Source of the DNA: Minisyncoccota bacterium
Lineage (GTDB): Bacteria; Patescibacteriota; Minisyncoccia; 2-02-FULL-40-12; GWA2-44-9
DNA length: 64,000 bases
Direction of reading: 5' to 3'
Assembly (NCBI GenBank): GCA_035620375.1
Contig: DASPGX010000028.1
Location: 2,974 to 66,973, forward strand
Below, piece by piece: positions 1-32,570 of the stretch. Position 1 is the first letter of the stretch. Each line of letters starts with the position of its first letter. The notes below the pieces were generated by a model. It worked only from the letters and a program-made list of their open reading frames with translations. It had not been told where the DNA came from and searched no databases. Made by a program: the position numbers and the translations under genes.

Positions 1-4
1 AACA

Positions 5-3000
5 TTGTTTATCCTTCCCTCGCTGTTCGGTACGGCGGATATTGATACGCCCACCCTCACCTTCAATAACGACCGCGATACCGGTATTGCTCACGAGGGC
101 TCGAATGCTCCGAACAAGCTGTTCTTCGTGACCGCGGGTAACGCGAGCGTCATGATTGATGGGAGCGGAAATCTGGTGCTTGATGAGAACCTGGTCTTCG
201 GTTCAACCGGCGCTGCGAAGCTGGACGTAGAGGGTAACGCCGGTGCGAATCTCATCGTGAATTTTGCCTCCAGTTCGGGCGCGCGCGCATTTCTTATCGG
301 TCCGAACCGGGCAATGGTTGCGGGTGGGGGTGCGTACGCGGCCGCGGACGATTTCCATCAGTTCAACACGGATTCCGGCAACAATAACCCGAACCGTTCG
401 GAAATCGGCGGATTAGACGACCTGTTCATCTCGGGCGACCTGGAGCTTGACGGTATCATTGATATTGCGGGTGACGCATCGGTATCGGGCGATATAGAGA
501 TGCAGACCAATGCGACGTACCTGATTCTCCCGTCCCTTGTCAGCTCGGCCGAAATTGATACGCCCCTGATGACGTTCAATAATGACCGCGACACGGGCAT
601 CGCGCACGAGGGCACGAATGCGCCGAACAAGCTGTTCTTCGTGACCGCGGGTAACGCGAGTGTCATGATTGATGGGAGCGGAAATCTCGTTTTGGACGAG
701 AATATGGTGTTCAGCACGGCGGGAGCCGCAAAACTGGATGTGGAAGGCAATGCCGGCGCGAATCTTATCGTGAATTTCGCCTCCAGCTCCGCGGCGCGTG
801 CGTTCCTTATCGGACCGAACCGGGCGGTGACAATCGGTGGTGCGGCGTACAACGCTGCAGACGATTTCAACCAGATTAACGACGATGCCACGAACAATAA
901 TCCCGGCAGGGCGGAAATCGATTCCATTACCGACCTGTTTATCGCGGACGACGTCGAGATCGACGGCATTTTGGACGTCGGCGGCGCCGCATCCATTTCG
1001 GGCCAACTGGAAGTCGGCACGACATTTAACCGGGAAACCCTGAAGGTGAAGGGCAATAACGGCACGAACGTTTCAACGGCGAATATCACGTTCGTTGACG
1101 ACCCGGATACCGGGTTTGCGAACCTCAGTCAGAACGGCGGCCCGGACAAGATATTCGTGGTGAACGGTGGCTCCGCCAATGCCGTCTTTGATGACGACGG
1201 AGACCTGCTTCTGCGTGACGGCCTGGCGTGGAACACGTCCGACGGCGATGCGAAACTTCACGTCATCAGTGCGGGGAGCGAGAATATTTTCATTGCGGCA
1301 TCCACTTCGGCGTCAACGTTTACCCTTACGAAGTACGGCGTATTTGTCCTCGGCGATGCAACATTCAACGCGAACCTGGAAACGTTCAACCAGTTTAATG
1401 ACGAAACGACGAACACGAACCCTGGCCGCAGTGAAATCACCGATGAAGAGGATCTGTTCATCGCCGGAGACCTGGAGATTGACGGGATACTGGATATTGG
1501 GGGATTCGCATCGATTTCCGGCGACCTGGAGGTCGGTACAAGTAATGAGTTCTTTGTGGACGTCTCGGCGAACAACGTCGGCATCAATACCAGTGCGCCG
1601 ACGGCCACGCTGCACGTCAGCAACCTGACGGCATCCCAGGACATCGTGAATATTTACGACAACACGACCGAGGTATTCAGTATTCTGGACGGCGGTAATG
1701 TCGGGGTGAACGTGACCGATCCGGTTGCCCGGTTCGCGGTGAGCAACGGTGCGGGTGCGCAGGACATATTCAACCTTTTTGACAACACGACCGAGGTCAT
1801 GACGGTTCTGAACGGAGGAAATGTCGGTATCGGCGCCACCGGACCGGAAATGCTGCTGGAGGTGGGCGGGAACATCCTGGCCTCCAATTCGGGCAATATC
1901 TATATCGGAACCGGATTGTTCCAGGTCAGCGGCGTGACGGCTGCGGCGTACAACCGTTTCGGGACCGGCACTACCGGTCATGCGTTGTCCGGCCAGAGCG
2001 ACGTACTGGTGAGCGATGACCTTGAAGTGGATGGTGTTCTGTTCGCCGACGGCGGCGCGACCATGGGCGGGACACTGAACCTGAACAGCAACAACATCAC
2101 GAACGGCGGCACGATTACCGGTACGACCATCACCGGAACAAGCTTCTCGGGCGGGTCATTCAGCGGTTCCAGCCTCTCGGTCAGCGGCGGCGTGAGCGGT
2201 GCGGGAGCGTCGTTCTCCGGAAACATTGAGGTCGCGGGCATCGCCAAACTATCCGCCGGTTCGGCGGGTGCCCCCTCGTATACCTTTACCAGTCAGACGA
2301 ATACGGGAATGTTCCGCAGCGGCACCAGCGTCGGCATCTCCGCCGCGGGAACCCAAATCGGCCTCTTCAGCACGGCCGGGCTTACCGTAACTGGGACCAT
2401 AGAGGCAAGCGGCGGTTTTATCGACAACGGCAACGCCGGCATCGACACGGACTGTGCGGCCAATGAATTCCTCGGCAACCAGACCACCTCGGGCGGCATC
2501 GTGACCGCCGGCTCCTGTGAGACGGACGACGTGGACTATGCCGAGCGCTTCTACGCGGGCGAATCCGGCATCGCTCCCGGTGACGTCATCGTCGCCGACC
2601 CGCGCGGCGCCGTTGATATCGGCGTCCCCGGCGCCGACTACAACCAGGCGGTCGTCCGCAGCACCACAGCCTACCAGGGCTCCACCATCGGCATCATCTC
2701 CACCATGCCCGGACTCATCATCGGCGCCAAAGGCACGGCGGAGCATCCCACCGTGGAAGTCGCCCTCGCCGGCCGCGTCCCCGTGAAGGTCAACGACCAG
2801 AACGGCCCCGTATCCGTGGGAGACATGCTCACCAGCTCCGATGAGCCCGGCATCGCCATGCGCGCCAACCGCGCCGGCATGGTCGTCGGTACCGCCCTGA
2901 CCGAACCCTACGCCTCCGGCTCCCAGCAGTATGTCATCGCCTTCGTGAACCCGCAGTTCTGGATGCCCACCGTCGGCGAAACCGACGACCTCTTCCCGAC

Positions 3001-3541
3001 GGCCGAGGAAGCGGGACTGTTTGAGCGGTTTGTGGGGTATCTGCGGGAACTGCTGGATATCACGCTGGAGAAAGGACTGATTGCGACCATCAAGGGAGTG
3101 TTCACCGAGGTCGTGACCGAGCGGCTCTGTCTGGAGGATGTATGTATCACCAAGGACGAGCTGCGCGGCCTCCTGGATTCCGGCGGAATCGTCCCCGTGG
3201 ACGGGTCCGGCGGACAACCGTCAGATGAGCCGGAAGACGAACAGGACGGGAGTGCGGATGGCGGGGCATCAGGAGGCGATACCTCAGACGGGCAGGATGA
3301 AGGGGAAGAGGTTACGGAAACCGTCGATGACGCCGGAACGGACGACGATGAGAATACTGCCGACGATTCAGGCAATCAGTCCGCGGATGAGACGTCGGAA
3401 ACCGAAGGCGGTGATGCCGGGGAGGGAGCGTCGGCAGATACAGCGGAAGACAGTTCTGCAGGGGAGACCGGTGACAGCGGAACGGAGGCCGGTCCCGATT
3501 CCGGGTCATCGTCATCGGGCGAAAGTGGTGATACGGAGTAA
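5..3541 (+). CDS. Giant repetitive extracellular protein (adhesin/tail-fibre-like). Has ~170-aa tandem repeats, a Gly/Thr/Ser-rich fibre region, and a ~110-aa acidic D/E/S/G low-complexity C-terminal tail. Probably continues upstream of the window.
   Basis: 1178-aa ORF. The protein repeat IDTP(T/L)(L/M)TFNNDRDTGIAHEG(S/T)NAPNKLFFVTAGNASVMIDGSGNLVLDEN... occurs twice nearly identically and a third time diverged. The underlying DNA repeat has a 510-nt period (e.g. 121-175 vs 631-685). Ends in an SDEPEDEQDGSADGG...GESGDTE tail. No catalytic motif recognised. Confidence 0.6.
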   Translation: MFILPSLFGTADIDTPTLTFNNDRDTGIAHEGSNAPNKLFFVTAGNASVMIDGSGNLVLDENLVFGSTGAAKLDVEGNAGANLIVNFASSSGARAFLIGPNRAMVAGGGAYAAADDFHQFNTDSGNNNPNRSEIGGLDDLFISGDLELDGIIDIAGDASVSGDIEMQTNATYLILPSLVSSAEIDTPLMTFNNDRDTGIAHEGTNAPNKLFFVTAGNASVMIDGSGNLVLDENMVFSTAGAAKLDVEGNAGANLIVNFASSSAARAFLIGPNRAVTIGGAAYNAADDFNQINDDATNNNPGRAEIDSITDLFIADDVEIDGILDVGGAASISGQLEVGTTFNRETLKVKGNNGTNVSTANITFVDDPDTGFANLSQNGGPDKIFVVNGGSANAVFDDDGDLLLRDGLAWNTSDGDAKLHVISAGSENIFIAASTSASTFTLTKYGVFVLGDATFNANLETFNQFNDETTNTNPGRSEITDEEDLFIAGDLEIDGILDIGGFASISGDLEVGTSNEFFVDVSANNVGINTSAPTATLHVSNLTASQDIVNIYDNTTEVFSILDGGNVGVNVTDPVARFAVSNGAGAQDIFNLFDNTTEVMTVLNGGNVGIGATGPEMLLEVGGNILASNSGNIYIGTGLFQVSGVTAAAYNRFGTGTTGHALSGQSDVLVSDDLEVDGVLFADGGATMGGTLNLNSNNITNGGTITGTTITGTSFSGGSFSGSSLSVSGGVSGAGASFSGNIEVAGIAKLSAGSAGAPSYTFTSQTNTGMFRSGTSVGISAAGTQIGLFSTAGLTVTGTIEASGGFIDNGNAGIDTDCAANEFLGNQTTSGGIVTAGSCETDDVDYAERFYAGESGIAPGDVIVADPRGAVDIGVPGADYNQAVVRSTTAYQGSTIGIISTMPGLIIGAKGTAEHPTVEVALAGRVPVKVNDQNGPVSVGDMLTSSDEPGIAMRANRAGMVVGTALTEPYASGSQQYVIAFVNPQFWMPTVGETDDLFPTAEEAGLFERFVGYLRELLDITLEKGLIATIKGVFTEVVTERLCLEDVCITKDELRGLLDSGGIVPVDGSGGQPSDEPEDEQDGSADGGASGGDTSDGQDEGEEVTETVDDAGTDDDENTADDSGNQSADETSETEGGDAGEGASADTAEDSSAGETGDSGTEAGPDSGSSSSGESGDTE

Positions 3542-3644
3542 AAATATGTCCGAGAGCGGCGCTGGAAGCCCCAATATAACGATTTTTCCGAATGTCTGAC
3601 GAAAAAGACCCGTTCTGAGCGTGTGAGCGATATTGGAGGGATGA

Positions 3645-3668
3645 CTTTTTCCACAGCTGTGGAAAAAG
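3645..3668. terminator. Perfect palindrome ctttttccacagctgtggaaaaag downstream of the giant protein gene (terminator-like hairpin)
   Basis: 24-nt self-complementary sequence with A/T runs on both sides, lying between the 3541 stop and the next gene start. Confidence 0.4.
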
Positions 3669-3757
3669 TCGGTTGGCGTTCGTCCGAAGCGGTTGGTATG
3701 CTTTCGCCAACGTAATATTTGCCGGGATTTTCGGAGGGACCGGCGTCTGAAGCTCAC

Positions 3758-4468
3758 ATGAAAGTCGTATCAAAATTGCTTGCGGGTCTGATTCTTGTCG
3801 CGGCCATCGCCGGAGGCGGCTGGTATTTCTTCAATAAGGGTAAGCAGGAGTTCGTCATCAAGCCGGGTGAGAAACTTTCCGAGGAGCAGGTGTCGCGGCT
3901 GGTCCAGCGCGTCGGACGGTTCCTCGTGCTTCCGGACAACGAGGAGCCCTCGGTCGCGGCCATCGTTGACGCCGCCGCGCTCGCCGAACGCCAGTCGTTC
4001 TACCAAGGCGCAAAGGACGGCGATATTCTTCTGGTCTACTCCAACAAAGCCATCATCTATGACGCGGTTGAAGATAAACTGGTGAATGTCGGACCCATCG
4101 TGCGCACGGACGAGCCGGTTGCGCCGGTCGCCAGCGGAAGCGGAACTCCGCTGCCGGAGGCAAGCGCGACGCCTGCTCCCGAGCCGACCGAGCCCGTCAC
4201 TATTGAAGTCCGCAACGGCACGACGACCGCCGGCCTCGCCGGAGCGATGCGCGACGAGCTGAAGAAGAACGAGCTGTTCAACGTGACCTCCGTCGGCGAC
4301 GCGACGGGCAGTTACACGGAAACGTTCATCGTTGACCTGACAGGCGGCAAGAAGTTCGCGACCGTCCAGGCGCTGCAGCAGGAGCTGAAGACCGCGAAGC
4401 TGGTGACGGCGCTTCCTCAGGGCGAGCGCTCCACGACGGCAGAAGTTCTCGTTCTTATCGGGAAGTAG
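3758..4468 (+). CDS. Membrane-anchored protein with LytR_C (LytR/CpsA/Psr C-terminal) domain
   Basis: N-terminal TM segment KLLAGLILVAAIAGGGWYFF. C-terminal IEVRNGTTTAGLAG...ELKKNELFNVTSVGDA...TFIVDLTGGK...VLVLIGK is typical of LytR_C. The ORF-track start at 3719 is TTG; the ATG at 3758 is preferred. Confidence 0.55.
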   Translation: MKVVSKLLAGLILVAAIAGGGWYFFNKGKQEFVIKPGEKLSEEQVSRLVQRVGRFLVLPDNEEPSVAAIVDAAALAERQSFYQGAKDGDILLVYSNKAIIYDAVEDKLVNVGPIVRTDEPVAPVASGSGTPLPEASATPAPEPTEPVTIEVRNGTTTAGLAGAMRDELKKNELFNVTSVGDATGSYTETFIVDLTGGKKFATVQALQQELKTAKLVTALPQGERSTTAEVLVLIGK

Positions 4469-4484
4469 CCGCCCCGAAAGCCCT

Positions 4485-4529
4485 CCTATATACTGAACGG
4501 CTCATCATATGAGCCGTTCAGTATATAGG
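4485..4529. repeat. Intergenic palindromic element copy 1 (core AACGGCTCAT-cat-ATGAGCCGTT)
   Basis: 45-nt near-perfect palindrome cctatatactgaacggctcat-cat-atgagccgttcagtatatagg. Shares its core with elements at 14824, 46536 and 62251. Confidence 0.6.
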
Positions 4530-4649
4530 TACGGTGAATTCTAAAGTTATCTACATACCACTTGCGGAGGGTATGCTATCATCCAAGTGCAACCTGGTAA
4601 CGCAAAAGCGCTTGTGAACCAAGCGTTTTTGCGTTTTAATGAGGAAACG

Positions 4650-7091
4650 ATGGAGCGCTCGTACGACCCTTCTTCCCTTGAGAAGAAGTGGCACGAACAG
4701 TGGCAGGACGCCGGACTCTACAGGACTCCCGATTCCGAAAAGGAGCGGGAGAATTTCATGTTGCTGACGGAATTTCCGTATCCGTCGGGCAATCTCCATA
4801 TCGGACACTGGTACGCCTTCGCGTTGCCGGACATGCTCGCGCGGTATTTGCGCATGACCGGCAGGAACGTCCTGTATCCCATCGGCTTTGACGCGTTCGG
4901 ATTGCCGGCCGAGAACGCCGCCATCCAGCGCGGCGTTCATCCGGAGGCGTGGACCCGGGAAAATATCGCGACCATGACGGAGCAGCTCCGCTCCATGGGG
5001 GCGTCGTTCGACTGGTCGCGGGCGGTTTCCACCATTGACCCGGCATATTACCGGTGGACGCAGTGGATGTTCCTCCGCTTTTTTGAAAAGGGCCTTGCCT
5101 ACAGGGCACGGACGACGGTCAACTGGTGTCCGAAAGACAAAACTGTCCTTGCCAATGAGCAGGTCGTCGACGGCGCCTGTGACCGGTGCGGCACGGCGGT
5201 TCAGCAGCAGGAGCGCGAACAGTGGATGCTCAAGACGACGGCGTACGCGGCTGAATTGGCTTCGGACCTTCAGGGGCTGGATTATCCCGAATCCACCAAA
5301 GCCGCCCAGCGGAACTGGATAGGGCCGAGCGAGGGCGCGGAAATCATTTTCCGGCTCAATGTACCGGGCCAGGACGACGGAAAGCACAGCGTGGCCGTCT
5401 TCACGACGCGGCCCGACACGCTGTTCGGCTGTACCTACCTTGCGGTTTCTCCCGAGCTGGCGAAGAAGTGGATGGACGTCGGGTGGGAAGCCCCGGACGC
5501 GGTCCGGGCGTACGTGGACGATGCGTTATCGCGGCGCGAGCTGGAACGCCTTGAGCGGGAAAAGACGGGCGTGGACAGCGGAGTAGCCGCCATCAACCCC
5601 GTTAACGGCGGGAAGGTGCCGGTCTGGGTTGCTGATTACGTGTTGGGCTCCTACGGTACCGGCGCCATCATGGCCGTTCCGGCGCACGACGAACGCGATT
5701 TTGAGTTCGCGGAGAAATTCGGCCTGCCCGTACGACAGGTAATCGAACCGGCCGGAGGAGACGATTCGTCCGGGGGCTCCGTCTATGCCGGAGAAGGCGT
5801 GCTTACGAACTCTGGGCCGTATGACGGTTTGGATTCCGCGCAGGCGCGAACGAAGATTACCGCAGAACTCGCTTCCAAGGGTCACGGTTCAGCCCGCACG
5901 ACATACCGTCTCCGCGATTGGATATTGTCCCGTCAGCGCTACTGGGGGTGTCCGATTCCGCTCATTTCGTGCAAGGAGTGCGGATTTGTCCCTGTTCCCG
6001 ACGAACAGCTGCCCGTCGAACTTCCTCCGCTGGACGACTTCAGGCCCGCCGATGACGGACGCTCTCCGCTCGCCAAGGCCGCGGGGTGGGTGAAAGCCGC
6101 ATGTCCGAAGTGCGGCGGAGACGCCGAGCGTGAAACCGATACGATGGATACCTTCGTGGATTCCTCGTGGTACTTCCTCCGGTACGCCGACCCGGACAAT
6201 GGCGGACGGTTCGCCGGTGAGGATAAAATCGGGGCATGGCTTCCCGTGCCGATGTACGTCGGCGGAGCGGAACACAATACGATGCACCTGCTGTATTCGC
6301 GGTTCTGGACGCGTGCGCTGAACGGCCTGGGCCTGGTGCCGTTCGCCGAGCCGTACCTGGCGCGGAGGAACCACGGCGTAATCCTCGGTCCGGACGGGCA
6401 GAAGATGTCCAAGTCGCGCGGGAACGTTATCGACCCCGACGAGCAGGTGGCCAAGTACGGCGCGGACACGGTGCGTATGTACCTGGCGTTCATGGCGCCG
6501 TACGAGCAGGGCGGACCGTGGGATCCCAAGGGCATCACCGGGGTGCACCGGTTCCTCAAGCGCTTCTGGGCGTTCGTCCATGACCGCTGGGAAAGCGCGG
6601 ACGGAGCGGACAGCGAAGATGCCGCAAAGGCGGTTCACCGGGCGAACCGGGACATCGGCGACGATTTGGCGAACCTCCGCTTTAATACGGCGGTTTCTTC
6701 GGCGATGATAATGCTCAATGCGCTTGAGACGGAAACAAAAGTCTCGCGGGACCTTCTCCGCCGGATGGTGCGCATCCTCGCGCCGATGGCCCCGCATATG
6801 GCCGAGGAACTCTGGCGTGGGACGCTCGGCGAACATGAGTCGGTCCACGTACAGAAATGGCCGGAGCCCGAGGAGGACATTCTGCGGGAGGACGAGTACG
6901 AACTGCCGGTTCAGGTGAACGGGAAACTGCGGGGGAGAATCGTCGTCGGACGCACCGATGACGAACGGACGGCGGTCGCGAAAGCGCTGCAATCCCCTGA
7001 TATTTTGCGGATTATCGGGGAGCAGTCCCCGAAAAAGACCGTATTTGTCGCCGGACGGATGCTCAATATCCTTGTGGATGAGAGCCATTGA
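4650..7091 (+). CDS. leuS: Leucyl-tRNA synthetase
   Basis: NLHIGH and KMSKS class I signatures with LeuS-specific editing/CP1 architecture. GAGGA RBS 6 nt upstream of the ATG at 4650. The ORF-track start at 4587 is an upstream in-frame extension. Confidence 0.95.
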   Translation: MERSYDPSSLEKKWHEQWQDAGLYRTPDSEKERENFMLLTEFPYPSGNLHIGHWYAFALPDMLARYLRMTGRNVLYPIGFDAFGLPAENAAIQRGVHPEAWTRENIATMTEQLRSMGASFDWSRAVSTIDPAYYRWTQWMFLRFFEKGLAYRARTTVNWCPKDKTVLANEQVVDGACDRCGTAVQQQEREQWMLKTTAYAAELASDLQGLDYPESTKAAQRNWIGPSEGAEIIFRLNVPGQDDGKHSVAVFTTRPDTLFGCTYLAVSPELAKKWMDVGWEAPDAVRAYVDDALSRRELERLEREKTGVDSGVAAINPVNGGKVPVWVADYVLGSYGTGAIMAVPAHDERDFEFAEKFGLPVRQVIEPAGGDDSSGGSVYAGEGVLTNSGPYDGLDSAQARTKITAELASKGHGSARTTYRLRDWILSRQRYWGCPIPLISCKECGFVPVPDEQLPVELPPLDDFRPADDGRSPLAKAAGWVKAACPKCGGDAERETDTMDTFVDSSWYFLRYADPDNGGRFAGEDKIGAWLPVPMYVGGAEHNTMHLLYSRFWTRALNGLGLVPFAEPYLARRNHGVILGPDGQKMSKSRGNVIDPDEQVAKYGADTVRMYLAFMAPYEQGGPWDPKGITGVHRFLKRFWAFVHDRWESADGADSEDAAKAVHRANRDIGDDLANLRFNTAVSSAMIMLNALETETKVSRDLLRRMVRILAPMAPHMAEELWRGTLGEHESVHVQKWPEPEEDILREDEYELPVQVNGKLRGRIVVGRTDDERTAVAKALQSPDILRIIGEQSPKKTVFVAGRMLNILVDESH

Positions 7092-9838: not shown

Positions 9839-9865
9839 ATAGCCAATCAGTTCCATTCCTATTAA

Positions 9866-11364
<1,499 letters not shown>

Positions 11365-11541
11365 ATTCAAGCTTTCCCTCTCCGGAGGGGAACGGATAGA
11401 AGGTAAATGTCGATGTAGGATATGCGCTGGCTTCTCAGCAATGGGAAGCGGGCTTAACCGCCACGGCGCATGAACTACGGCGGGTCCGACGCATAAATCG
11501 GAGGCCTTATACCGGTTCGGCCAAAAACACCGGTGGTGGAC

Positions 11542-21046: not shown

Positions 21047-22063
21047 ATGAGCCTGAACGCAAAATACAACCTGGCGTTCCCTGAAAACCCCGCCGATGCG
21101 GAAATGGTTCCCACGCGGGACGGGTTCGGCAAAGGGCTCGTCCGGGCGGGCGAGCAGGACGAGCGGGTCGTCGCGTTGTGCGCCGACCTGACCGAGTCCA
21201 CGCGCACCCAGTGGTTCGCCGAAAAATTCCCCGGACGTTTTGTACAGGTCGGGGTCGCGGAGCAGAACCTTGCGGTTCTGGCCTCCGGCATGGCGAATTA
21301 CGGCAAGATTCCGTTCATCACCTCGTATGCGACGTTCAGCCCGGGCCGGAACAACGAGCAAATCCGGACGACGGTCTGCATCAACAACGTGCCCGTGAAA
21401 ATCGCGGGTTCCCATGCGGGCGTTTCCGTGGGACCTGACGGCGCCACGCACCAGGCTTTGGAGGATATCGCGCTCATGCGGGTCATCCCGCGGATGGTCG
21501 TGGTCGTTCCCGCGGACGCTCCGCAGGCGCAAAAAGCGACGTTCGCCGCCGCATTCAACGGCTCGCCCACATATATCCGGCTGGGAAGGGAAAAAATGCC
21601 GGTATTCACGACCGACGATACGCCTTTTGAAATCGGAAAAGCACAGGTACTGCGGGACGGTTCGGATGTTGCGATAGTCGCTTGCGGCGCGCTGGTTTAT
21701 GAAGCGCTTCTGGCGGCCCGCCGTCTGGCGGATGATGGCATTGAATGCACAGTCATCAATAACCACACCGTGAAACCGATGGATGCACGGACTATCGCAG
21801 ATGCCGCGAGGGCCTGCGGCGCCGTGGTCACCGCGGAGGAACACCAGATTGCGGGGGGCATGGGCTCGGCCGTGGCCGAAGTTCTTGCCGCCTCGGGACC
21901 CGTTCCCGTGGAGTTTGTGGGGATGCAGGACCGTTTCGGCGAGTCCGGGCCCCCGGCGGACCTGATGAAACATTTCGGCCTTGATGCGGATGGTATCATC
22001 CAGGCCGTTCACCGCGTCATGAAGCGGAAGAAGAAGAGCCGCGCCGCGAAACCGAAGAAATGA
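21047..22063 (+). CDS. Transketolase, C-terminal (pyrimidine-binding + C-terminal domain) subunit
   Basis: FVQVGVAEQNLAVLASGMA and later transketolase C-domain blocks. The ATG at 21047 is preferred because the ORF-track start at 21020 overlaps the preceding gene. Confidence 0.9.
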   Translation: MSLNAKYNLAFPENPADAEMVPTRDGFGKGLVRAGEQDERVVALCADLTESTRTQWFAEKFPGRFVQVGVAEQNLAVLASGMANYGKIPFITSYATFSPGRNNEQIRTTVCINNVPVKIAGSHAGVSVGPDGATHQALEDIALMRVIPRMVVVVPADAPQAQKATFAAAFNGSPTYIRLGREKMPVFTTDDTPFEIGKAQVLRDGSDVAIVACGALVYEALLAARRLADDGIECTVINNHTVKPMDARTIADAARACGAVVTAEEHQIAGGMGSAVAEVLAASGPVPVEFVGMQDRFGESGPPADLMKHFGLDADGIIQAVHRVMKRKKKSRAAKPKK

Positions 22064-22639: not shown

Positions 22640-22728
22640 GGCTGAAACAGTAGCATAAATGGCTGACTTTGGCAATACCTGAACCATAAAAGGCCCGCTA
22701 CGGCAGGCCCTCTATGGCATACGGTTTG

Positions 22729-22800
22729 TGGGCGGCATAGGAATCGAACCTATGACCTCTGTCTTATCAGGACAGCGTTCTACCACTGAACTAGCCGCCC
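22729..22800 (-). tRNA. tRNA-Ile (anticodon GAU)
   Basis: Reverse complement folds as a cloverleaf: acceptor GGGCGGC/GCCGCCC, anticodon loop CUGAUAA, T-loop TTCGATT, discriminator A. No encoded CCA. Confidence 0.85.
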
Positions 22801-22890: not shown

Positions 22891-22963
22891 GGGCCCGTAG
22901 CTTAGTTGGTAGAGCGCCTCATTTGCAATGAGGAGGTCACCGGTTCGAATCCGGTCGGGTCCA
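22891..22963 (+). tRNA. tRNA-Ala (anticodon UGC)
   Basis: Cloverleaf with the G3:U70 alanine identity pair, anticodon loop TTTGCAA, T-loop TTCGAAT, discriminator A. No encoded CCA. Followed by the hairpin gcccgcc-tctgac-ggcgggt. Confidence 0.85.
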
Positions 22964-23020
22964 CCTGAAAATCGCACAGCGCCCGCCTCTGACGGCGGGT
23001 GCCGTGGTAGGATGAGCCCA

Positions 23021-25882: not shown

Positions 25883-27325
25883 TCATTTTATCTCGTTCCA
25901 GTTGATGGGAGTGTAATAGCTGGAGGTCTTGGGGAAACTCGGAGGAGGATAAAACAGGAGATTGGGGTCGTAGATGATGATGCGTTGCTGGTACCCGGTG
26001 CCGTCGCTCCAGGCGAATCCGTACCGCTCTTCAGAGCCGATCATCCCGTAGAGCGTGATTTTCTGGCGGACGTGGTTGGGAGAGCACCGTGGCTGGTTGC
26101 CGGAGGGCGGCCGGTAGTAGTAGCGGCCGACCCGGTTGCTCTGCGCCAGGAGCGCACCGTCAATCCGCAGGTCGTCCTCGCTGTCCCATCCGGCATTCAC
26201 ATTGCCCTGGGCTACGAGCGAAATAATATCCTGACCGTCGTAGTTCGTGTACAAAAGGTCCCGGTTGACGGTTATGTGCATCCGGTGGGCGGGATTTTCC
26301 GGGAAACGCCCTGTCGCAATGGTAATCCGGGCCGTATTTATCTGTCCGTCAATCCACACGTGGTCTTCAATGAAGATTATGCCGTTGTCCGGGAACGGAT
26401 AGTTACCGAGAAAGGTTTCGTCTTCAATGCTCCAGGTGTCCCAGTCCTGCTCGCCCAGAACGCTGACGCATCCGTTGGGCGCCTTGATGGTATCCGTCAC
26501 GTCGTAGAGGTCGAAGGTGTCGTTTGTTTTCAGGATGATGTGGTAGCCCTTGTTGCCGACCGTGTTCCGGTAGAAGCCGTCTGCTTGAGCGCTGGCTTTC
26601 AGGTTGGCGAGGTCCTGAGAGAGTCCGGCGAAATCGATGGGCGGAACGGGGAACTGTCTGCCTGCCTTGAAGACGTCCGGGCGGTTCGGCACGGCTGCAG
26701 GGGGGAGCGGGTCCTGCGGCGCGACGTGGGTATGGACGCCGAATTCATCCTGCCCGCTGTGGTCGGGGTCGTTGAACTCGGCGACCGCGCTGGTGACGAG
26801 ATTATGCGCGATGCCGTCGATGCGGACTCCGGAATTCGAGTGGACCGGTCCGAAGATTTCCGAGCCGGGCCCGAAGAACACGTACGAGCCGATGATGGCG
26901 GAGTATTTTGCGAAGGACGGAATGTCCATCTGTGCCTCAATGATTTTCTCGGCGTCCGGATTCACGGTCAGCGTCCCCGTAGACCGGATGGTCAGGAGCG
27001 TGGAGCCCGTTGCCGGAGGCGAAATATCGAGCGTGAACGTTCCGATGAGATTTCCGTCTTTATCGCGGTAGTCATGGACGTACGGCCCCGGAGCGCCGGT
27101 GCCGTCCTGGTAATCCTTGGGCGCATGCGCCAGGTGCCACCGGTAGTATTCAATGCCGGCCTCCGCGATGAGAAAGGCCTGCTCGGCGTCGCTGTCGCGC
27201 CACACCAGCCGGACGTTCGTGTCCGCCCACAGCACGAAGCCGGTCAGGATAATGATGGAAACCGCGCTGAAAATCAGAACCTGTACCGCAATCTGGCCCT
27301 TGTTCCGGTATCCGGTCATGCTCAT
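25883..27325 (-). CDS. Large PilX-like minor pilin / pilus-associated protein (480 aa)
   Basis: N-terminal hydrophobic PilX_N-like segment GQIAVQVLIFSAVSIIILTGFVLWA followed by a large extracellular domain. Overlaps the next gene by 4 nt. Confidence 0.5.
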   Translation of the reverse strand: MSMTGYRNKGQIAVQVLIFSAVSIIILTGFVLWADTNVRLVWRDSDAEQAFLIAEAGIEYYRWHLAHAPKDYQDGTGAPGPYVHDYRDKDGNLIGTFTLDISPPATGSTLLTIRSTGTLTVNPDAEKIIEAQMDIPSFAKYSAIIGSYVFFGPGSEIFGPVHSNSGVRIDGIAHNLVTSAVAEFNDPDHSGQDEFGVHTHVAPQDPLPPAAVPNRPDVFKAGRQFPVPPIDFAGLSQDLANLKASAQADGFYRNTVGNKGYHIILKTNDTFDLYDVTDTIKAPNGCVSVLGEQDWDTWSIEDETFLGNYPFPDNGIIFIEDHVWIDGQINTARITIATGRFPENPAHRMHITVNRDLLYTNYDGQDIISLVAQGNVNAGWDSEDDLRIDGALLAQSNRVGRYYYRPPSGNQPRCSPNHVRQKITLYGMIGSEERYGFAWSDGTGYQQRIIIYDPNLLFYPPPSFPKTSSYYTPINWNEIK

Positions 27326-27927
27326 ATTTCGCCCCTCAAATTACGGATGGTCGCGTCAATTGACTGCGTGAATCCTGCGGGCGGAAGCGTGGGGTCGTCG
27401 TCGACGGTGACGCGCATCCGGATGAGGCGTATCTGTGCGACCGGAACCGGCGCGGAGAGCGAGGCGGTGTTCCCGGTCCATGACAGCCCTTCCCAGTACG
27501 CAAAGATGTCCGGCCCTGGTACGACGGAGGTGATGACGTCCCGCACCTGTTCATCCACGGCAGGATACGTGGCCGGGTTTCCCGTCGGCTCGGTGACGCC
27601 TTTCCGTATCGTCGTTCCGTCCAGGAAGTACCGGATTTGTTCGAACGTTCCGTCTGCGTCCACGTCGGCATAGAACGTGATGCCGTTCGCCGCGGCGGCG
27701 GCAATCGGATAGCTTCCGTTCTCCGAGATGCTCATGGAACGCGCCTCCGAGATGAACGTCCGGAGCGTCCGCTCGACCCCGCGCTCCGAATCCAGCCGGC
27801 TCCCCAGGAGTGTGCCGAAAAAGTTCACGTCGAGGGCGAAATACGTGGCAAGCGTCATGACGCCGGTCGCGACGGCGATGGTGATGAGCAATTCCAGGAT
27901 TGTGACGCCGCGGCGGTGCATCGTCAT
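27322..27927 (-). CDS. Minor pilin / pseudopilin with prepilin-type N-terminal methylation domain
   Basis: RRGVTILELLITIAVATGVM. Confidence 0.65.
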   Translation of the reverse strand: MTMHRRGVTILELLITIAVATGVMTLATYFALDVNFFGTLLGSRLDSERGVERTLRTFISEARSMSISENGSYPIAAAAANGITFYADVDADGTFEQIRYFLDGTTIRKGVTEPTGNPATYPAVDEQVRDVITSVVPGPDIFAYWEGLSWTGNTASLSAPVPVAQIRLIRMRVTVDDDPTLPPAGFTQSIDATIRNLRGEI

Positions 27928-29717
27928 GGATTCAGGGGAACGGTAATACCCTGCCAGTCAGCGATAACGGGAACCTCCGCATTGTAATCGGAGAAACCGG
28001 ACTTTGTGACGGTGAGCGTGTACGTATCATTGGCAAGGCCGCTGAAGAACGCGTTTCCGCCGGGCAGGCATCCGGCGCGGTAGGTGATGCCGACCGCTTC
28101 CAGAGAGGGAGTGGCGTCCTGGTCCAGCGTCCGCATTTCTACCCGGTACCGGAGATAGCGGTTACCGTTGTGCAATGTGGGAAGGTTTCCGCCGGCGCCG
28201 GTATAGAAGGTTGCCGGAGTGCCGTCGGGCCCCGCATAGACCCAGGTAGCGTTGTCGTTGTTCGTGGCAATCTGGAGCCGGACGCTGTCGGTTCCGGTTT
28301 CGGACGGCTGGGACGACGGCGTCATGCCGGCCGAGAAGAATGAGATGCTCGCCGTCCCGAAATCGACGGTTTCCGATTCCAGCCACGCATAGCTTCCCGT
28401 TGCGTGGGGCCCGCCGGGCGGAATGAGCGTAAGTACGCCCGCAGAGGCGGTGTATATTCCGCCGCTCTGCTGGCTGAACTGGCCGCCGCTCCAGTCGCTT
28501 TGGGACCAGGTATTGCGTCCGCTGACGACCGTGACGTCGTACGCGCCGCTGGCAAGGCGCACCGCCGCGTCGTTTAACGGTGTGCCGCCCGGGCCGGTAA
28601 CCGTGACGAGCAGTGACGAGGGGTCCTTCGGCGCCATCAGCCAGGTGACCGCAAGTGACGAACCCGGATTAAGGGTGAACGGCGAGGGATGGCTGGTCCC
28701 GGCGATATCCCACGAAGCGTCCGTGGATCGGGCCGTGAAACTGTCCCATTCCAGCGGTGAGACCGACACGGTGCCGCCGGCGCCGGTCTGGTGCGAAACG
28801 GAGTATTTGGGGATATCCGGAGCGGAGCCGATGAGTTTGGAACCGGTCAGGAGAAAGTCAACGCCTGGTACGGTGCCGCACACCGCGCTCCGCGAGGTGA
28901 AGGCGACGTCACCCGTTACGTCGATGGAAAACGTCGCCACGGTCAGCTGCTCCGCAACGATGGTCAGGTCGGGCTTTGCGGGGTTCGGGTTCGAAGGCTC
29001 GCCGGGCGGATACGTGCGGTCCGTAGAGTAGCCCGCCTTGGTGACGGTCACCCGGTAGCCCGCGGAATCGGTCGCCAGGCCAATGAGCTGAAGGAGGCCG
29101 TCCGCATCCGAAGTGTCCGTGATGTTGACGGCGGGGGTCACTCCCGTGTTGGTGACCGTGATGGTCGCACCCGGCAGTGCGATACCCGAGCCGTCCAGAA
29201 CGCGCACCAGGAGGTACCCGGTCTTCGACGGGTCTTCCAGGTTGCGCGGAGCCAATGTCGTGGTCATCCGGATATCCGAGAACCGCGGGCATGAGGCACA
29301 CAAGATGCGCAGTTCGATGATTTTGTAGTCCGCCGGGTCGGTATCGCCCGGGGTGCCGTCCAGGAGGCCATCGAAGGGGTCGTCAATGTTCCTGACCGTC
29401 GTTTCGACGGTGAACGGCACGCCGCCCACGGTGACCGCCTTGGACGGCGGAAGCAGTCCGGGCGGCACGCCGCCGACCGTGCCGACGTCCTCGTAGCGCA
29501 TATTTCTGATAATCTCCACCTCGGATTCTATGATGTTTGCCGCCGTCGCGTGGTATTGTCCCGCAGTCACGATGTCGAGCGTGTTGCTGTACGACAGATA
29601 CAACCCCGAAGAAACAATGACCAGGATGGTCATGCCGATGAGCGTTTCCAGCAACGTAAAACCGGCCGGGACGCATCCGGCTTTTGTGCGGCCGTCCGTC
29701 GGTGCAAGTTTTCTCAT
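27924..29717 (-). CDS. Giant minor pilin (597 aa) with prepilin-type N-terminus
   Basis: AGFTLLETLIGMTILVIVSSGLYLSY followed by ~550 aa of beta-rich, T/S/G-rich extracellular domain. Confidence 0.6.
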   Translation of the reverse strand: MRKLAPTDGRTKAGCVPAGFTLLETLIGMTILVIVSSGLYLSYSNTLDIVTAGQYHATAANIIESEVEIIRNMRYEDVGTVGGVPPGLLPPSKAVTVGGVPFTVETTVRNIDDPFDGLLDGTPGDTDPADYKIIELRILCASCPRFSDIRMTTTLAPRNLEDPSKTGYLLVRVLDGSGIALPGATITVTNTGVTPAVNITDTSDADGLLQLIGLATDSAGYRVTVTKAGYSTDRTYPPGEPSNPNPAKPDLTIVAEQLTVATFSIDVTGDVAFTSRSAVCGTVPGVDFLLTGSKLIGSAPDIPKYSVSHQTGAGGTVSVSPLEWDSFTARSTDASWDIAGTSHPSPFTLNPGSSLAVTWLMAPKDPSSLLVTVTGPGGTPLNDAAVRLASGAYDVTVVSGRNTWSQSDWSGGQFSQQSGGIYTASAGVLTLIPPGGPHATGSYAWLESETVDFGTASISFFSAGMTPSSQPSETGTDSVRLQIATNNDNATWVYAGPDGTPATFYTGAGGNLPTLHNGNRYLRYRVEMRTLDQDATPSLEAVGITYRAGCLPGGNAFFSGLANDTYTLTVTKSGFSDYNAEVPVIADWQGITVPLNP

Positions 29718-30826
29718 CGTCCGAGTGACTGACTGATTTTGTAGATTGGCGTGATGATGGAAATGGCGACGAAACTTACGACCAATCCCATGGCCAGAAG
29801 CAGGAGCGGTTCCAGGATGTTGCTCATGGTCTTCGTCGCACCGTCCAGCTCGGACTCATAAAATGTTGCGAGGAATTCGAAGGTCTCGTCCAGCTTTCCC
29901 GTGCTTTCGCCGACGTTTGCCATTTGCGAGAACGTCGGCGGGAAGAATTCCGGACGTTCGATCATCAGCTTGCTCATCGTCTGACCCTGCTGGACCTCCT
30001 TCGCGATATCCTCCATCTGCTGCTGGTAGACCAGGTTCGTCAGCGACCGTCCGGAAATATTGATTGCTTCCACGATGCGGACGCCGCCTTTCAGAAGCAG
30101 GTTCATGGTGCGGGCCACGGTTATGATGTTGACGTCCATCACCATTGAGCCCACGAGGGGCATCCGGGTGAGCGAGCGGTGCCAGGCGAACCGGACCGCG
30201 CGTATGCGGAGCAGGAACATCCAGCCGATGCCCAGCACAACCAGTCCCAGAATCACCCAGAGGCCGTTGGCAATCATGAATTCGGAGAACGCGATGAATA
30301 TCCGCGTGGTCAGCGGAAGTTCCACATTGAGCGAGTTGAGCACGGGAAGGATGCGCGGAAAAATGAAGAACGTCATGATTCCCGTGATGCCGAACGTCGC
30401 CACGAGGATGACGATGGGGTAGACCATCGCGCCGACGACTTTCTTCTGCAGTTCCGCCTTCTTTTCCAGTTCCTGGGCAAGGTATTTGAAGTTCTCCGAC
30501 AATGTGCCGGACGTTTCACCGACCCGGACCAAGTTGATGATGAAATCGCCGAACACCTGCTTGTACCGTTCCATGCCGACCGAGAGGTAGTGGCCGTTCT
30601 TCACGTCGGCTATGAGGCTGTCCAGCACCTTCAGGAACGGACGGGACTTGGTCTGCTTCCGGAGAATTTCCAGCGATTCCAAAACCTGAAGTCCCGAGCG
30701 CGTCATCATCTCCATATGGCGCGCAAACAGCATCTTGTCTTTCAGGGACAGCCTGAAGAACAGGCTGCTGAAACCGCCCAGACTGCCGCCCTCGGTTTTC
30801 GGGGGTGTTTCGGTTCCGTTACTCAT
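29714..30826 (-). CDS. pilC: Type IV pilus assembly platform protein PilC (GspF family)
   Basis: Two T2SSF repeats and three TM segments. Overlaps both neighbours. Confidence 0.85.
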   Translation of the reverse strand: MSNGTETPPKTEGGSLGGFSSLFFRLSLKDKMLFARHMEMMTRSGLQVLESLEILRKQTKSRPFLKVLDSLIADVKNGHYLSVGMERYKQVFGDFIINLVRVGETSGTLSENFKYLAQELEKKAELQKKVVGAMVYPIVILVATFGITGIMTFFIFPRILPVLNSLNVELPLTTRIFIAFSEFMIANGLWVILGLVVLGIGWMFLLRIRAVRFAWHRSLTRMPLVGSMVMDVNIITVARTMNLLLKGGVRIVEAINISGRSLTNLVYQQQMEDIAKEVQQGQTMSKLMIERPEFFPPTFSQMANVGESTGKLDETFEFLATFYESELDGATKTMSNILEPLLLLAMGLVVSFVAISIITPIYKISQSLGR

Positions 30827-32570
30827 GAATGACGCGGAGGATTTCTTCGATGGTCGTCAGTCCCTTCAGCGCTTTCTGGAACCCGTCTTCCAGAAGCGTG
30901 GTCATGCCGTTCTTGATGGCGATTTTCTTGATTTCGCTCGCGTCGGCGTGGCGCATGATGGCTTCGCGGATGAAATCGTTGACCTCCAGGATTTCATAGA
31001 TGCCCATCCGGCCCTTGTACCCCGTATGACCGCACATGTCGCAGCCCTTGCCGATGTAGAAGTCGCGGTGGTCATCAAGGATTTCCGGGGTCAGGGAATC
31101 CTTCAGCGACATGAACTCTCCTTCGGTAATGCGCCGCGGCTCCTTGCAGTTCTCGCAAATCATGCGCACCAGCCGCTGGCCCATCGCCACGTTCACCGTG
31201 GATGCGACCAGGAACGGCTCGACGCCCATATCCAACAGGCGCGGCAACGTCGTTGCGGCGTCGTTCGTGTGCAGGGTGGACAGGAGCTTGTGGCCCGTCA
31301 GAGCCGCGTTGACGGCGATGGACGCCGTCTCTTCGTCGCGGATTTCGCCGACCATGATGATGTTCGGGTCCTGCCGGAGGATTGAACGCAGGCCGGCGGC
31401 GAACGTCAGTCCGGTGCGGTTGTTCACCTGAATCTGGTCGATGCCCTCCAGGGAGTACTCGATGGGGTCTTCAATCGTGATGATGGACACTTCGCGCGTG
31501 GAGAGTTCCTTGAGGATGGTGTACAGCGTCGTCGTTTTTCCGGAGCCGGTCGGTCCCGTCGCCAGAATCATGCCGTACGGCGTCTTCACCGCCTTGCGGA
31601 CCTTTTTCCGGTCGGCCTCGCTCAACGCCACGTCGTCCAGCGAATTGAGCTTGGTCTGTTCGGCCAGGAGCCGCAGGACTGCGTTCTCGCCGTAGTAGGT
31701 CGGGACGATGCTGACGCGGACGTCGAACTGCCGGTCGGAGTCCTGCATGCTGATGCGGAACCGGCCGTCCTGTGCCGCCTGGTGTTCGTCGGTCCGCATC
31801 GCACCCAGGACTTTGATGCGGGAGATGATGCCCGGATGGATGCCCTTGGGGAACGTGAACGAATCGCGCAGGATGCCGTCGATACGCAGGCGCGCGAGGA
31901 GGTTTTCTTCGGTCGGCTCAAGATGAATATCCGAAGCACGCGTGAGGAACGCGTATCCCATGAGCGTGTCCACGAGCGCGATAATCGATATCTCGGCTTC
32001 CGGCTTCGTGACAATCTGCTGAATCCGGTCTTTGAGGTCCTGAATCTGTTTGGGGTCCGCTCCCGCGACGTCCGACAAATCTTTGGGCTCCTTCGCGGAA
32101 GCCTTCGCTTTTCCGTTCCGTGCGGATTTCTTCGCGGGTTCCGTTTCGGGGGGCGCGGCCGGCGCCGGTCCGCCTCCTTTGGCCAGCCGCTGTGCCTCGG
32201 CGACGATATCGGAAACGGTGATGTCCCGCTTGACCATCACGGACTCAATGCCGCACGTTTGCGCCCGTTTGCGTTCGTTCTCGTCGTCCTTGTCGAACAG
32301 TACCAGCGCGGGGATGTGCCTCTCCTTTCTGGCGTCTTCGACGAGCTTGCAGTAGTCACCGCCCTCGTGGAGCGGAACGTCCACGACCAGCGCGTCCGGC
32401 GCGTTCTTCTTGAGCATCTGGCGCGCCTCATCGTCGGACGATGCGTGCGACGCCTCAAGCTCCGCCTTCTTGAGGCGTTCCATGAGCAGTTGTGCCATGA
32501 AAAAATTGTCCTCAACGAGGAGGACCCGTCTGCCGCCCGTAGTAGTAGTCCCGTTCTTCCGTGCCGACAT
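30819..32570 (-). CDS. pilB: Type IV pilus assembly ATPase PilB/GspE with N-terminal receiver (REC)-like domain
   Basis: Walker A GPTGSGKTTT, Asp box, His box and tetracysteine CxxC...CxxC (CENC...CDMC). The first ~120 aa (RRVLLVEDN...LVVDV...VMVKRD) resemble a CheY-like receiver. Confidence 0.85.
   Translation of the reverse strand: MSARKNGTTTTGGRRVLLVEDNFFMAQLLMERLKKAELEASHASSDDEARQMLKKNAPDALVVDVPLHEGGDYCKLVEDARKERHIPALVLFDKDDENERKRAQTCGIESVMVKRDITVSDIVAEAQRLAKGGGPAPAAPPETEPAKKSARNGKAKASAKEPKDLSDVAGADPKQIQDLKDRIQQIVTKPEAEISIIALVDTLMGYAFLTRASDIHLEPTEENLLARLRIDGILRDSFTFPKGIHPGIISRIKVLGAMRTDEHQAAQDGRFRISMQDSDRQFDVRVSIVPTYYGENAVLRLLAEQTKLNSLDDVALSEADRKKVRKAVKTPYGMILATGPTGSGKTTTLYTILKELSTREVSIITIEDPIEYSLEGIDQIQVNNRTGLTFAAGLRSILRQDPNIIMVGEIRDEETASIAVNAALTGHKLLSTLHTNDAATTLPRLLDMGVEPFLVASTVNVAMGQRLVRMICENCKEPRRITEGEFMSLKDSLTPEILDDHRDFYIGKGCDMCGHTGYKGRMGIYEILEVNDFIREAIMRHADASEIKKIAIKNGMTTLLEDGFQKALKGLTTIEEILRVIHE

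What the first reader, a model, noticed from the sequence alone, without database searches (positions are those of the whole stretch)
5..3541. Giant repetitive surface protein with near-identical 510-bp DNA tandem repeats and an acidic disordered tail
The DNA repeat unit of about 40-545 recurs almost base-for-base at 550-1060. For example ttcttcgtgaccgcgggtaacgcgag occurs at 124-149 and at 634-659. A third, diverged copy follows at about 1090-1560. Further downstream come short ~40-aa repeats (DIVNIYDNTTEVFSILDGGNVGVNVTDP / DIFNLFDNTTEVMTVLNGGNVGIGATGP), a GT-rich fibre-like stretch, and a ~110-aa D/E/S/G tail. Near-identical long repeats are hotspots for recombinational expansion and contraction, which is phase or antigenic variation of a surface or tail-fibre-like protein. 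A region beginning CETDDVDY... and containing T-x-x-H-P loosely recalls Hint/autoprocessing modules, but that similarity is weak.
Basis: seen in the sequence. Interest (0 to 1): 0.55.

Follow-up and report, generated by a model that had tools for sequence, protein, structure and literature searches.

The report
Phage-fibre-like bacterial surface fibre gene
This is the 3' part of a gene for a long, tail-fibre-like surface protein of an uncultured bacterium that ends in a phage-type folding module likely to cut itself off; its internal repeats are old, diverged domain copies rather than near-identical DNA repeats, so it is a fairly ordinary member of a very large, poorly annotated family.

Summary
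The ORF is real: frame 2, nt 2-3541, 1179 codons, open at the left edge, so the N-terminus is missing. The repeat is real but overstated. Its period is 513 nt (171 aa), not 510. Copies 1 and 2 are 72% identical in DNA and 74% in protein, with synonymous divergence near saturation (Ks about 1.4, Ka/Ks about 0.14). Copy 3 is about 56% identical in DNA. Only one 65-nt patch (110-174 and 623-687) is near-identical. This is an old domain duplication under purifying selection, not a recombination hotspot.

The 41-aa repeats carry the NVGIG-x3-P-x3-L-x-V "capping loop" motif of trimeric beta-helical fibres.

Its D845-Y-A-E848 motif aligns with the gp12 cleavage site. The same motif is about 98% conserved in 448 sampled copies of the module.

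The module family has about 31,000 clusters at 50% identity, mostly large secreted proteins of uncultured bacteria and archaea annotated as hypothetical.

Neighbouring genes are housekeeping (LeuRS, TrmD, 16S rRNA), not phage.

Verdict: a cellular trimeric fibre or adhesin with a probably self-cleaving C-terminal chaperone; phase variation is unsupported.

The parts
2..3541 (+). ORF for the fibre protein. 1179 codons are visible, it is open at the window's left edge (N-terminus missing), and the stop is at 3539-3541.
   Evidence: no frameshift or internal stop
2..511 (+). Repeat unit R1 (aa 1-170) of the 171-aa module
   Evidence: Repeat HMM
515..1024 (+). Repeat unit R2 (aa 172-341). It is 74% identical to R1 in protein and 72% in DNA.
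1040..1543 (+). Repeat unit R3 (aa 347-514), 42-45% identical in protein to R1 and R2
110..174 (+). The only near-identical DNA patch; its partner is at 623-687 (38 + 26 exact bases, one mismatch). It is probably a short gene-conversion tract.
   Evidence: A Logan short-read contig of the same organism breaks near here; it starts at about aa 211.
623..687 (+). Partner of the near-identical patch
1544..1951 (+). Shaft segment (aa 515-650) with three capping-loop motifs: VGINTSAPTATLHV (aa 526), VGVNVTDPVARFAV (aa 567) and VGIGATGPEMLLEV (aa 608). It includes the two 41-aa repeats.
   Evidence: The motif is defined in PMC10769870. There is a weak hit to the Bdellovibrio fibre 8on4.
1952..2533 (+). 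G/T/S-rich distal shaft (aa 651-844). It ends in a loop bounded by C818 and C839, both conserved in the homologue P0001.
   Evidence: In the sampled family, 131 of 451 DxAE sites have at least 2 Cys within 35 aa upstream.
2534..2545 (+). D845-Y-A-E848 motif. The predicted self-cleavage site is V844|D845. The motif aligns with D692-F-A-E695 of phi29 gp12.
   Evidence: D, A and E are about 98% conserved in 448 domain instances.
2534..2968 (+). Beta-tulip autochaperone-like module (aa 845-989), related to phi29 gp12 D4 / Peptidase_G2
   Evidence: AF2 pLDDT is above 90 over most of the core. Foldseek matches 3gqh_A and 3suc and phage cement proteins, and phage fibre C-termini at E down to 1e-11. 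Profile-to-PDB search gives E 1.9e-4.
2969..3205 (+). Small helix/strand region after the module (aa 990-1068) with the conserved motif LCLEDVCITKDELRGLL (aa 1042-1058; C1043 and C1048)
   Evidence: The motif is also present in P0001, P0009, P0010 and P0277.
3206..3538 (+). Acidic low-complexity tail (aa 1069-1179; net charge -38)
   Evidence: P0001 has a tail of similar composition. 41 of 282 sampled family members have acidic tails.
3643..3670 (.). Perfect 28-bp palindrome in the intergenic region after the gene; possibly a terminator or operator
3758..4468 (+). Downstream gene for a membrane-anchored LytR_C-domain protein. It is a neighbour; no link to the fibre has been shown.

Best explanation
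The ORF encodes the C-terminal two thirds or more of a cellular, phage-tail-fibre-like surface fibre, by analogy a homotrimer. It reads as follows.
- Three or more 171-aa beta-rich modules.
- A shaft with beta-helix 'capping loop' motifs and a G/T/S-rich segment, ending in a Cys-bounded loop.
- A C-terminal tandem beta-tulip module homologous to the D4 autochaperone of the phi29 tail spike gp12 (Peptidase_G2).
- A small Cys-containing region and a 111-aa acidic tail.

Inferred mechanism:
1. The C-terminal module trimerises first.
2. It nucleates folding of the interdigitated shaft.
3. It then cuts itself off at V844|D845 using the D845/E848 pair.
4. This releases a fragment of about 335 aa that includes the acidic tail, and exposes the Cys-loop tip as the distal, ligand-binding end of a fibre anchored by its unseen N-terminus.

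Shown: the homology and fold of the module, conservation of the motif, the fibre motifs, and the chromosomal context. Inferred: trimer formation, export, cleavage, and an adhesive role.
For: Homology to gp12 D4:
- A family profile hits only phi29 pre-neck appendage protein in the PDB, at E 1.9e-4 and 3e-3. DxAE is placed exactly on D692-F-A-E695, the first residues of the cleaved D4 fragment 3gqh.
- hhalign to gp12 aa 680-854 gives probability 79% and E 1.6e-5.
- Family member P0031 (E 1e-74 to the profile) passes the Pfam Peptidase_G2 threshold, 37.1 bits against 25.
- The AF2 model has a confident core. It matches 3gqh_A and 3suc and beta-tulip cement proteins, and C-termini of phage fibre and preneck-appendage proteins at E 1e-11 to 1e-9.
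- DxAE is about 98% conserved in 448 domain copies.

Fibre shaft:
- Capping-loop motifs are present, as defined for Bdellovibrio MAT fibres (PMC10769870).
- A relative, L086, has the same shaft motifs but a Peptidase_S74 chaperone instead.

Export:
- 85 of 128 large family members that start with M have an N-terminal hydrophobic anchor.
- The Cys pairs are conserved.

Context:
- The gene sits in a chromosomal, non-phage context.

What D4 does:
- D4 consists of tandem beta-tulips that act as an autochaperone (bioRxiv 10.1101/216911).
- Its auto-proteolytic release in phi29 is stated in PMC4690869.
- The roles of D692 and E695 are from my own recollection of Xiang et al. 2009, which I could not read.
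Against: - The query itself gets no Pfam, PHROG or NCBIfam hit.
- Sequence similarity to gp12 covers only the first tulip, and the Foldseek TM-score is modest (0.53, rmsd 9).
- The fold matches non-proteolytic capsid cement proteins equally well.
- 151 of the 282 sampled family members carry two tandem copies of the module, both with DxAE. That is odd for a module that is simply discarded.
- A conserved region and a long tail follow the module, which hints that the C-terminal part may have a function of its own.
- No signal peptide can be seen, because the N-terminus is missing.
- The repeat units could not be modelled (pLDDT 34), so neither the trimer nor the beta-helix is demonstrated.
Confidence: 0.6

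Rival explanations
1. It is the same fibre, but the beta-tulip module is not cleaved. It stays on as a permanent trimerisation knob or binding module, like phage capsid cement proteins or the uncleaved P22 tailspike fin. In this reading DxAE is structural.
For: The best Foldseek PDB matches are non-proteolytic cement or decoration proteins. Many relatives have two tandem modules. A conserved Cys motif and a tail follow the module. Member P0006 lacks DxAE.
Against: The 98% conservation of D, A and E exactly at the gp12 cleavage position is hard to explain by structure alone. In many relatives the module is the extreme C-terminus, as in cleaved chaperones (110 of 282).
Confidence: 0.25
2. One reading: near-identical 510-bp DNA repeats make the gene a hotspot for recombinational expansion and contraction, giving phase or antigenic variation.
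For: One 65-nt near-identical patch exists. R1 and R2 are closer to each other (74%) than to any unit of the homologue P0001 (61-62% at best), so there has been a lineage-specific duplication or conversion. Module content differs between the query and P0001.
Against: Overall DNA identity is 72%. Ks is about 1.4 and Ka/Ks about 0.14. The longest exact match is 38 nt, and TRF finds no array. The module differences are between proteins only 56% identical, which is an evolutionary rather than a population timescale.
Confidence: 0.07
3. It is a tail fibre or tail spike of a prophage, tailocin or gene-transfer-agent-like element rather than a cellular surface protein.
For: The module and the shaft motifs are typical of phage fibres. 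The upstream region is not visible.
Against: The next 60 kb hold a LytR_C gene, LeuRS, TrmD, 16S rRNA, RNase HII and pilus or secretion genes, and no phage structural genes. There is no PHROG hit. Relatives sit next to rpsB and release-factor genes and carry signal anchors.
Confidence: 0.06
4. The CETDDVDY... region with T-x-x-H-P is a Hint/intein-like or Peptidase_S74 autoprocessing domain.
Against: There is no Pfam hit to Hint, intein or S74 even at E<=1. The confident predicted fold is beta-tulip. The 'AEHPTVEV' stretch lies inside that fold.
Confidence: 0.02

Closest known systems
Bacillus phage phi29 gp12 pre-neck appendage (tail spike) protein, C-terminal D4 autochaperone; Pfam PF11962 Peptidase_G2 (PDB 3gqh, 3suc, 6qz9)
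   Same: It is a C-terminal module following a beta-rich fibre. The D-x-A-E motif sits at the module's first residue. The fold is a tandem beta-tulip. These are the only PDB sequence hits of the family profile.
   Different: The query fails the Pfam model. Sequence similarity is detectable only for the first tulip. There are 190 further residues after the module (a Cys motif plus an acidic tail). The upstream part is a thin fibre with capping loops, not the gp12 pectate-lyase-like beta-helix. The gene is chromosomal.
Bdellovibrio bacteriovorus MAT (mosaic adhesive trimer) fibres (PMC10769870; e.g. PDB 8on4)
   Same: These are cellular, phage-fibre-like surface fibres with the V-G-G/N-x-x-x-P-x-x-x-L capping-loop motif and a modular, chimeric build. 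Part of the family ends in a self-cleaving chaperone.
   Different: The MAT chaperone is Peptidase_S74 (Ser-Lys), whereas here it is G2-like. The MAT N-terminal anchor domain cannot be checked. Sequence similarity is only marginal (E 0.029).
Peptidase_S74 intramolecular-chaperone fibres (K1F endosialidase, T5 pb1)
   Same: The logic is the same: a C-terminal trimerising chaperone that is auto-released (PMC4690869). A relative with the same shaft motifs (L086) uses S74.
   Different: The fold and catalytic residues differ, and the query has no S74 hit.
Phage capsid cement/decoration beta-tulip proteins (Borrelia phage BB1 8pkh, Pam3 gp6 8hdt, T1 9kzj; Pfam Phage_cement)
   Same: They are the best Foldseek PDB matches (E 6e-5 to 1e-2) and are trimeric beta-tulip modules.
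   Different: They are stand-alone capsid proteins, not fused to a fibre, with no DxAE motif and no proteolysis known.

Membership tests
Peptidase_G2 / phi29 gp12 D4 autochaperone | Match to Pfam PF11962 above the gathering score | tested here: not met
   The query has no Pfam hit at E<=1. Only 2 of 12 aligned relatives hit weakly. Relative P0031 passes, 37.1 bits against 25. 4 of the 120 listed relatives carry PF11962 precomputed.
Peptidase_G2 / phi29 gp12 D4 autochaperone | D-x-A-E motif at the cleavage position (gp12 S691|D692...E695) | tested here: met
   D845-Y-A-E848 aligns with D692-F-A-E695. The motif is about 98% conserved in the family sample.
Peptidase_G2 / phi29 gp12 D4 autochaperone | Tandem beta-tulip fold | tested here: met
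   The AF2 core has pLDDT above 90. Foldseek matches 3gqh_A at E 8e-4 with TM 0.53, and 3suc at E 1.5e-3. It also matches viral preneck-appendage models at E about 1e-9.
Peptidase_G2 / phi29 gp12 D4 autochaperone | Autocatalytic cleavage and release after trimer assembly | not testable with these tools
   This needs protein expression and mutagenesis.
MAT-type cellular trimeric fibres | Beta-helix capping-loop motif V-G-G/N-x-x-x-P-x-x-x-L | tested here: met
   There are three copies, at aa 526, 567 and 608. The motif is taken from PMC10769870.
MAT-type cellular trimeric fibres | Signal peptide followed by a conserved N-terminal anchor domain of about 130 aa | not testable with these tools
   The N-terminus lies outside the window. 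The upstream sequence was not recovered.
MAT-type cellular trimeric fibres | Homotrimeric interdigitated fibre | tested here: inconclusive
   The monomer AF2 model of aa 1-345 failed (pLDDT 34). No multimer tool was available.
Peptidase_S74 intramolecular chaperone | Pfam PF13884 match / SDxxxK Ser-Lys dyad | tested here: not met
   There is no hit in the query. The relative L086 does have one.
Hint / intein autoprocessing domain | Hint-family profile match or Hint fold | tested here: not met
   There is no Pfam hit. The predicted fold is beta-tulip.
Recombination-driven phase-variable repeat locus | Long, near-identical tandem DNA repeats | tested here: not met
   DNA identity is 72%, Ks is about 1.4, the longest exact word is 38 nt, and TRF is negative.

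The most novel reading that the evidence does not exclude
The gene would be one representative of a very large family: about 31,000 clusters at 50% identity, almost all annotated 'hypothetical' and mostly missed by Pfam. The family would consist of secreted cellular fibres in uncultured bacteria and archaea (Patescibacteria, Chloroflexota, Bipolaricaulota, Omnitrophota, DPANN). These fibres would have adopted the phi29-type self-cleaving beta-tulip chaperone, often in tandem and followed by charged tails. They would serve as the cells' own receptor-binding fibres for cell-cell or host recognition. The retained C-terminal extension would give the module a second role beyond folding.
Probability: 0.2. 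Interest if true: 0.6.

Novelty: new member of a known kind. Interest (0 to 1): 0.35.

Why it matters
The finding gives a concrete, testable annotation for a protein that every standard library leaves blank: a fibre shaft, a G2-type autochaperone, and a predicted cleavage site at V844|D845. It also shows that the same module marks tens of thousands of large 'hypothetical' surface proteins in uncultured lineages, where the mechanisms of cell-cell attachment are largely unknown. A dedicated profile for this divergent subfamily would improve annotation of metagenomes. The specific claim of phase variation does not hold up.

Tried and rejected
- Tandem Repeats Finder on nt 1-6000 found nothing.
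- Pfam, PHROGs and NCBIfam on the whole protein gave no meaningful hit.
- phmmer of the whole protein against the PDB gave only a marginal hit to the Bdellovibrio fibre 8on4.
- The first word-indexed homologue search was swamped by the low-complexity tail and returned 6 hits.
- AF2 on repeat units aa 1-345 with a 4-row alignment failed (pLDDT 34), so the 171-aa unit has no fold assignment. Its HMM finds whole units only in P0001.
- Scans of genome contigs and metagenome contigs with the protein found no close relatives. A profile scan found only distant shaft relatives.
- Attempts to recover the true N-terminus failed. P0001 is itself cut at its contig start. The Logan contig of the same organism starts inside repeat R2.
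- Taxonomy: the best LeuRS hits in GTDB are only 49% identical, mostly Chloroflexota, so there is no firm placement.
- Xiang et al. 2009 (PMC2692858) could not be read. The catalytic roles of D692 and E695 therefore rest on my memory, plus the alignment to the first residue of the cleaved fragment.
- The Hint, S74, prophage and phase-variation readings were considered and rejected, as set out under the rival explanations.
Full report
**Observation.**
- Frame 2 of the + strand is open from the window edge to a stop at 3539-3541. That is 1179 codons, with the N-terminus outside the window.
- A long direct repeat is present, but its period is 513 nt (171 aa).
- Units R1 (aa 1-170) and R2 (aa 172-341) are 72% identical in ungapped DNA, 80% over the first 300 nt, and 74% in protein.
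- R3 (aa 347-514) is about 56% identical to them in DNA and 42-45% in protein.
- Tandem Repeats Finder reports no array.
- Nei-Gojobori counting gives pS 0.63 (Ks about 1.4), Ka 0.19 and Ka/Ks about 0.14. This is an old duplication kept under purifying selection.
- The one exception is a 65-nt patch, 110-174 versus 623-687, with 38 + 26 exact bases. It has almost no synonymous change and looks like a short gene-conversion tract.
- The 41-aa repeats, the G/T/S-rich stretch and the acidic tail are as described. The tail is 111 aa with D+E 34%, no K or R, and net charge -38.

**Context.**
- Downstream lie a membrane-anchored LytR_C protein (3758-4468), LeuRS, TrmD, a lone 16S rRNA gene, RNase HII, and a type IV pilus or type II secretion cluster.
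- Nothing in the 60 kb downstream is phage-like, and PHROGs gives no hit.
- GC content is about 61%.
- LeuRS is at most 49% identical to any genome found in GTDB, mostly Chloroflexota. The organism is therefore poorly represented in reference genomes.

**The C-terminal module.**
- The whole protein has no Pfam, PHROG or NCBIfam match.
- Homologues share a block of about 145 aa (aa 845-989) that begins with D-x-A-E.
- A 12-sequence profile of this block, searched exhaustively, finds 31,085 cluster representatives at E<=1e-3 and 25,656 at E<=1e-10. Most are proteins of 1000-6800 aa.
- Named members come from Patescibacteria, Saccharibacteria, Bipolaricaulota, Chloroflexi, Omnitrophota, Endomicrobium and Woesearchaeota, and all are annotated 'hypothetical'.
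- Against the PDB, the profile hits only the phi29 pre-neck appendage protein gp12. The E-value is 0.039 with 12 sequences, and 1.9e-4 and 3e-3 with 78 sequences.
- In those alignments the family's DxAE falls on D692-F-A-E695, the first residues of the cleaved C-terminal fragment 3gqh. hhalign to gp12 aa 680-854 gives 79% probability and E 1.6e-5.
- Family member P0031 passes the Pfam Peptidase_G2 gathering score at this motif.
- AlphaFold2 with the 78-sequence alignment gives a confident core, with pLDDT above 90 for most of aa 845-989.
- Foldseek finds phage capsid cement proteins, the phi29 gp12 C-terminal fragment (3gqh_A at E 8e-4, and 3suc), and the gp8.5 base.
- Among predicted viral structures, Foldseek finds C-termini of phage fibre and preneck-appendage proteins at E 1e-11 to 1e-9 with 23-29% identity.
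- gp12 D4 is described as two tandem beta-tulips acting as an autochaperone for trimerisation, with homology to 'some bacterial adhesion proteins' (bioRxiv 10.1101/216911). Its auto-proteolytic release is stated in PMC4690869.
- D, A and E of the motif are about 98% conserved in 448 domain instances from 282 sampled relatives.
- I therefore read aa 845-989 as a divergent Peptidase_G2-type autochaperone and predict cleavage at V844|D845. Cleavage itself is inferred, not shown.

**The rest of the protein.**
- aa 515-650 carry three copies of V-G-x-x-x-x-P-x-x-x-L-x-V. This is the beta-helix 'capping loop' motif defined for the trimeric MAT fibres of Bdellovibrio (PMC10769870). The only marginal PDB hit of the whole protein is such a fibre, 8on4.
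- Just before the predicted cleavage site, C818 and C839 are conserved in the closest homologue P0001 (56% identity). In the family sample, 131 of 451 DxAE sites have such a Cys pair upstream.
- After the module comes a region of about 80 aa with the conserved motif LC-x4-C-x-T-x3-L-x2-LL, shared with P0001, P0009, P0010 and P0277. The acidic tail follows; a tail of similar composition is present in P0001 and in 41 of 282 relatives.
- Of 128 large relatives that start with M, 85 have an N-terminal hydrophobic anchor followed by a conserved 'YQG(R/K)L' domain. That supports export for the family, but the query's own N-terminus is unknown.
- A relative with the same shaft motifs (L086, 2226 aa, next to rpsB and a release-factor gene) ends in Peptidase_S74 instead. 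This shows the modular, chimeric build typical of such fibres.
- The 171-aa unit as a whole is found only in the query and in P0001, and its fold could not be predicted.
- R1 and R2 are each 61-62% identical to unit 4 of P0001 and 74% identical to each other. This fits a lineage-specific duplication. The other units are 33-50% identical to one another.
- Module content differs between the two homologues: the query has R3, and P0001 has an insert of about 370 aa. That is an evolutionary difference, not a population-level one.

**Interpretation.**
- The best-supported reading is a cellular, tail-fibre-like surface fibre whose C-terminal G2-type beta-tulip module nucleates trimer folding and is then probably self-cleaved.
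- The main rival is that the module is retained. In its favour: tandem copies of the module in half of the sampled relatives (a sample biased towards high scores), the conserved extension behind it, and the equally good fold match to non-proteolytic cement proteins.
- Phase variation through near-identical repeats, a Hint or S74 domain, and a prophage origin are each contradicted by tests run here.

**Novelty.**
- Cellular phage-fibre-like adhesins with self-cleaving chaperones are known (the MAT/S74 fibres).
- Homology of gp12 D4 to bacterial adhesion proteins was noted by Rossmann and colleagues, as cited in bioRxiv 10.1101/216911.
- This gene is therefore a new member of a known kind.
- What is mildly notable is how large and how poorly annotated the divergent module family is. 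Full-text searches found no description of it in these lineages.

Noticed in passing
window 9860-11362 (+); 22728-22800 (-); 22891-22965 (+): A complete 16S rRNA gene stands alone, with no 23S or 5S rRNA in the window. tRNA-Ile(GAT) and tRNA-Ala(TGC), which usually sit in the 16S-23S spacer, lie 11 kb away and are divergently oriented. This looks like an unlinked rRNA arrangement. The ORF listed at 10794-11264 lies inside the 16S gene and is spurious.
   Followed up: partly
window 3643-3670: A perfect 28-bp palindrome (GACTTTTTCCACAG|CTGTGGAAAAAGTC) lies in the gap between the fibre gene and the LytR_C gene. It could be a terminator hairpin or an operator.
   Followed up: no
window 110-174 and 623-687: A 65-nt patch has one mismatch and almost no synonymous change, inside repeats that are otherwise saturated at synonymous sites. 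It is probably a short gene-conversion tract. A Logan short-read contig of the same organism (L087) starts inside R2, near this patch.
   Followed up: partly
window 30819-32570 (-): A T2SSE/PilB-type ATPase has an N-terminal response-regulator receiver domain. It sits next to T2SSF (29714-30826) and several unannotated genes (25883-29717), one with a weak CarboxypepD_reg hit. This looks like a pilus or secretion cluster with a built-in phospho-switch.
   Followed up: no
window 4587-7091 (+): LeuRS is at most 49% identical to any of the genomes returned from GTDB. The best hits are Chloroflexota/Dehalococcoidia, followed by Moorella and Thermoleophilia. The source organism appears to have no close sequenced relative.
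   Followed up: partly
L086 6776-17382: The 2226-aa fibre relative ends with Peptidase_S74 followed by an N-terminal intein-splicing segment. Next comes a PD-(D/E)XK nuclease ORF, and then an ORF that starts with the C-terminal intein-splicing segment. This could be an interrupted or split intein at the end of a fibre gene.
   Followed up: no
L084 about 5500 to the locus end at 21539 (inferred from the absence of listed ORFs): No complete ORF of at least 200 aa is listed after 5421 on this 21.5-kb locus, yet a shaft-like match lies at 10001-11539. This fits a giant ORF of more than 5000 aa running off the locus. A LAGLIDADG-domain ORF lies just upstream (4633-5421).
   Followed up: no
family proteins P0022, P0031, P0045, P0057, P0102: Many relatives carry two tandem copies of the DxAE beta-tulip module separated by about 250-300 aa. 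They often have proline/glutamate-rich or acidic C-terminal tails. 85 of the 128 large relatives that start with M share an N-terminal signal anchor plus a 'YQG(R/K)L...G.PV' domain.
   Followed up: partly
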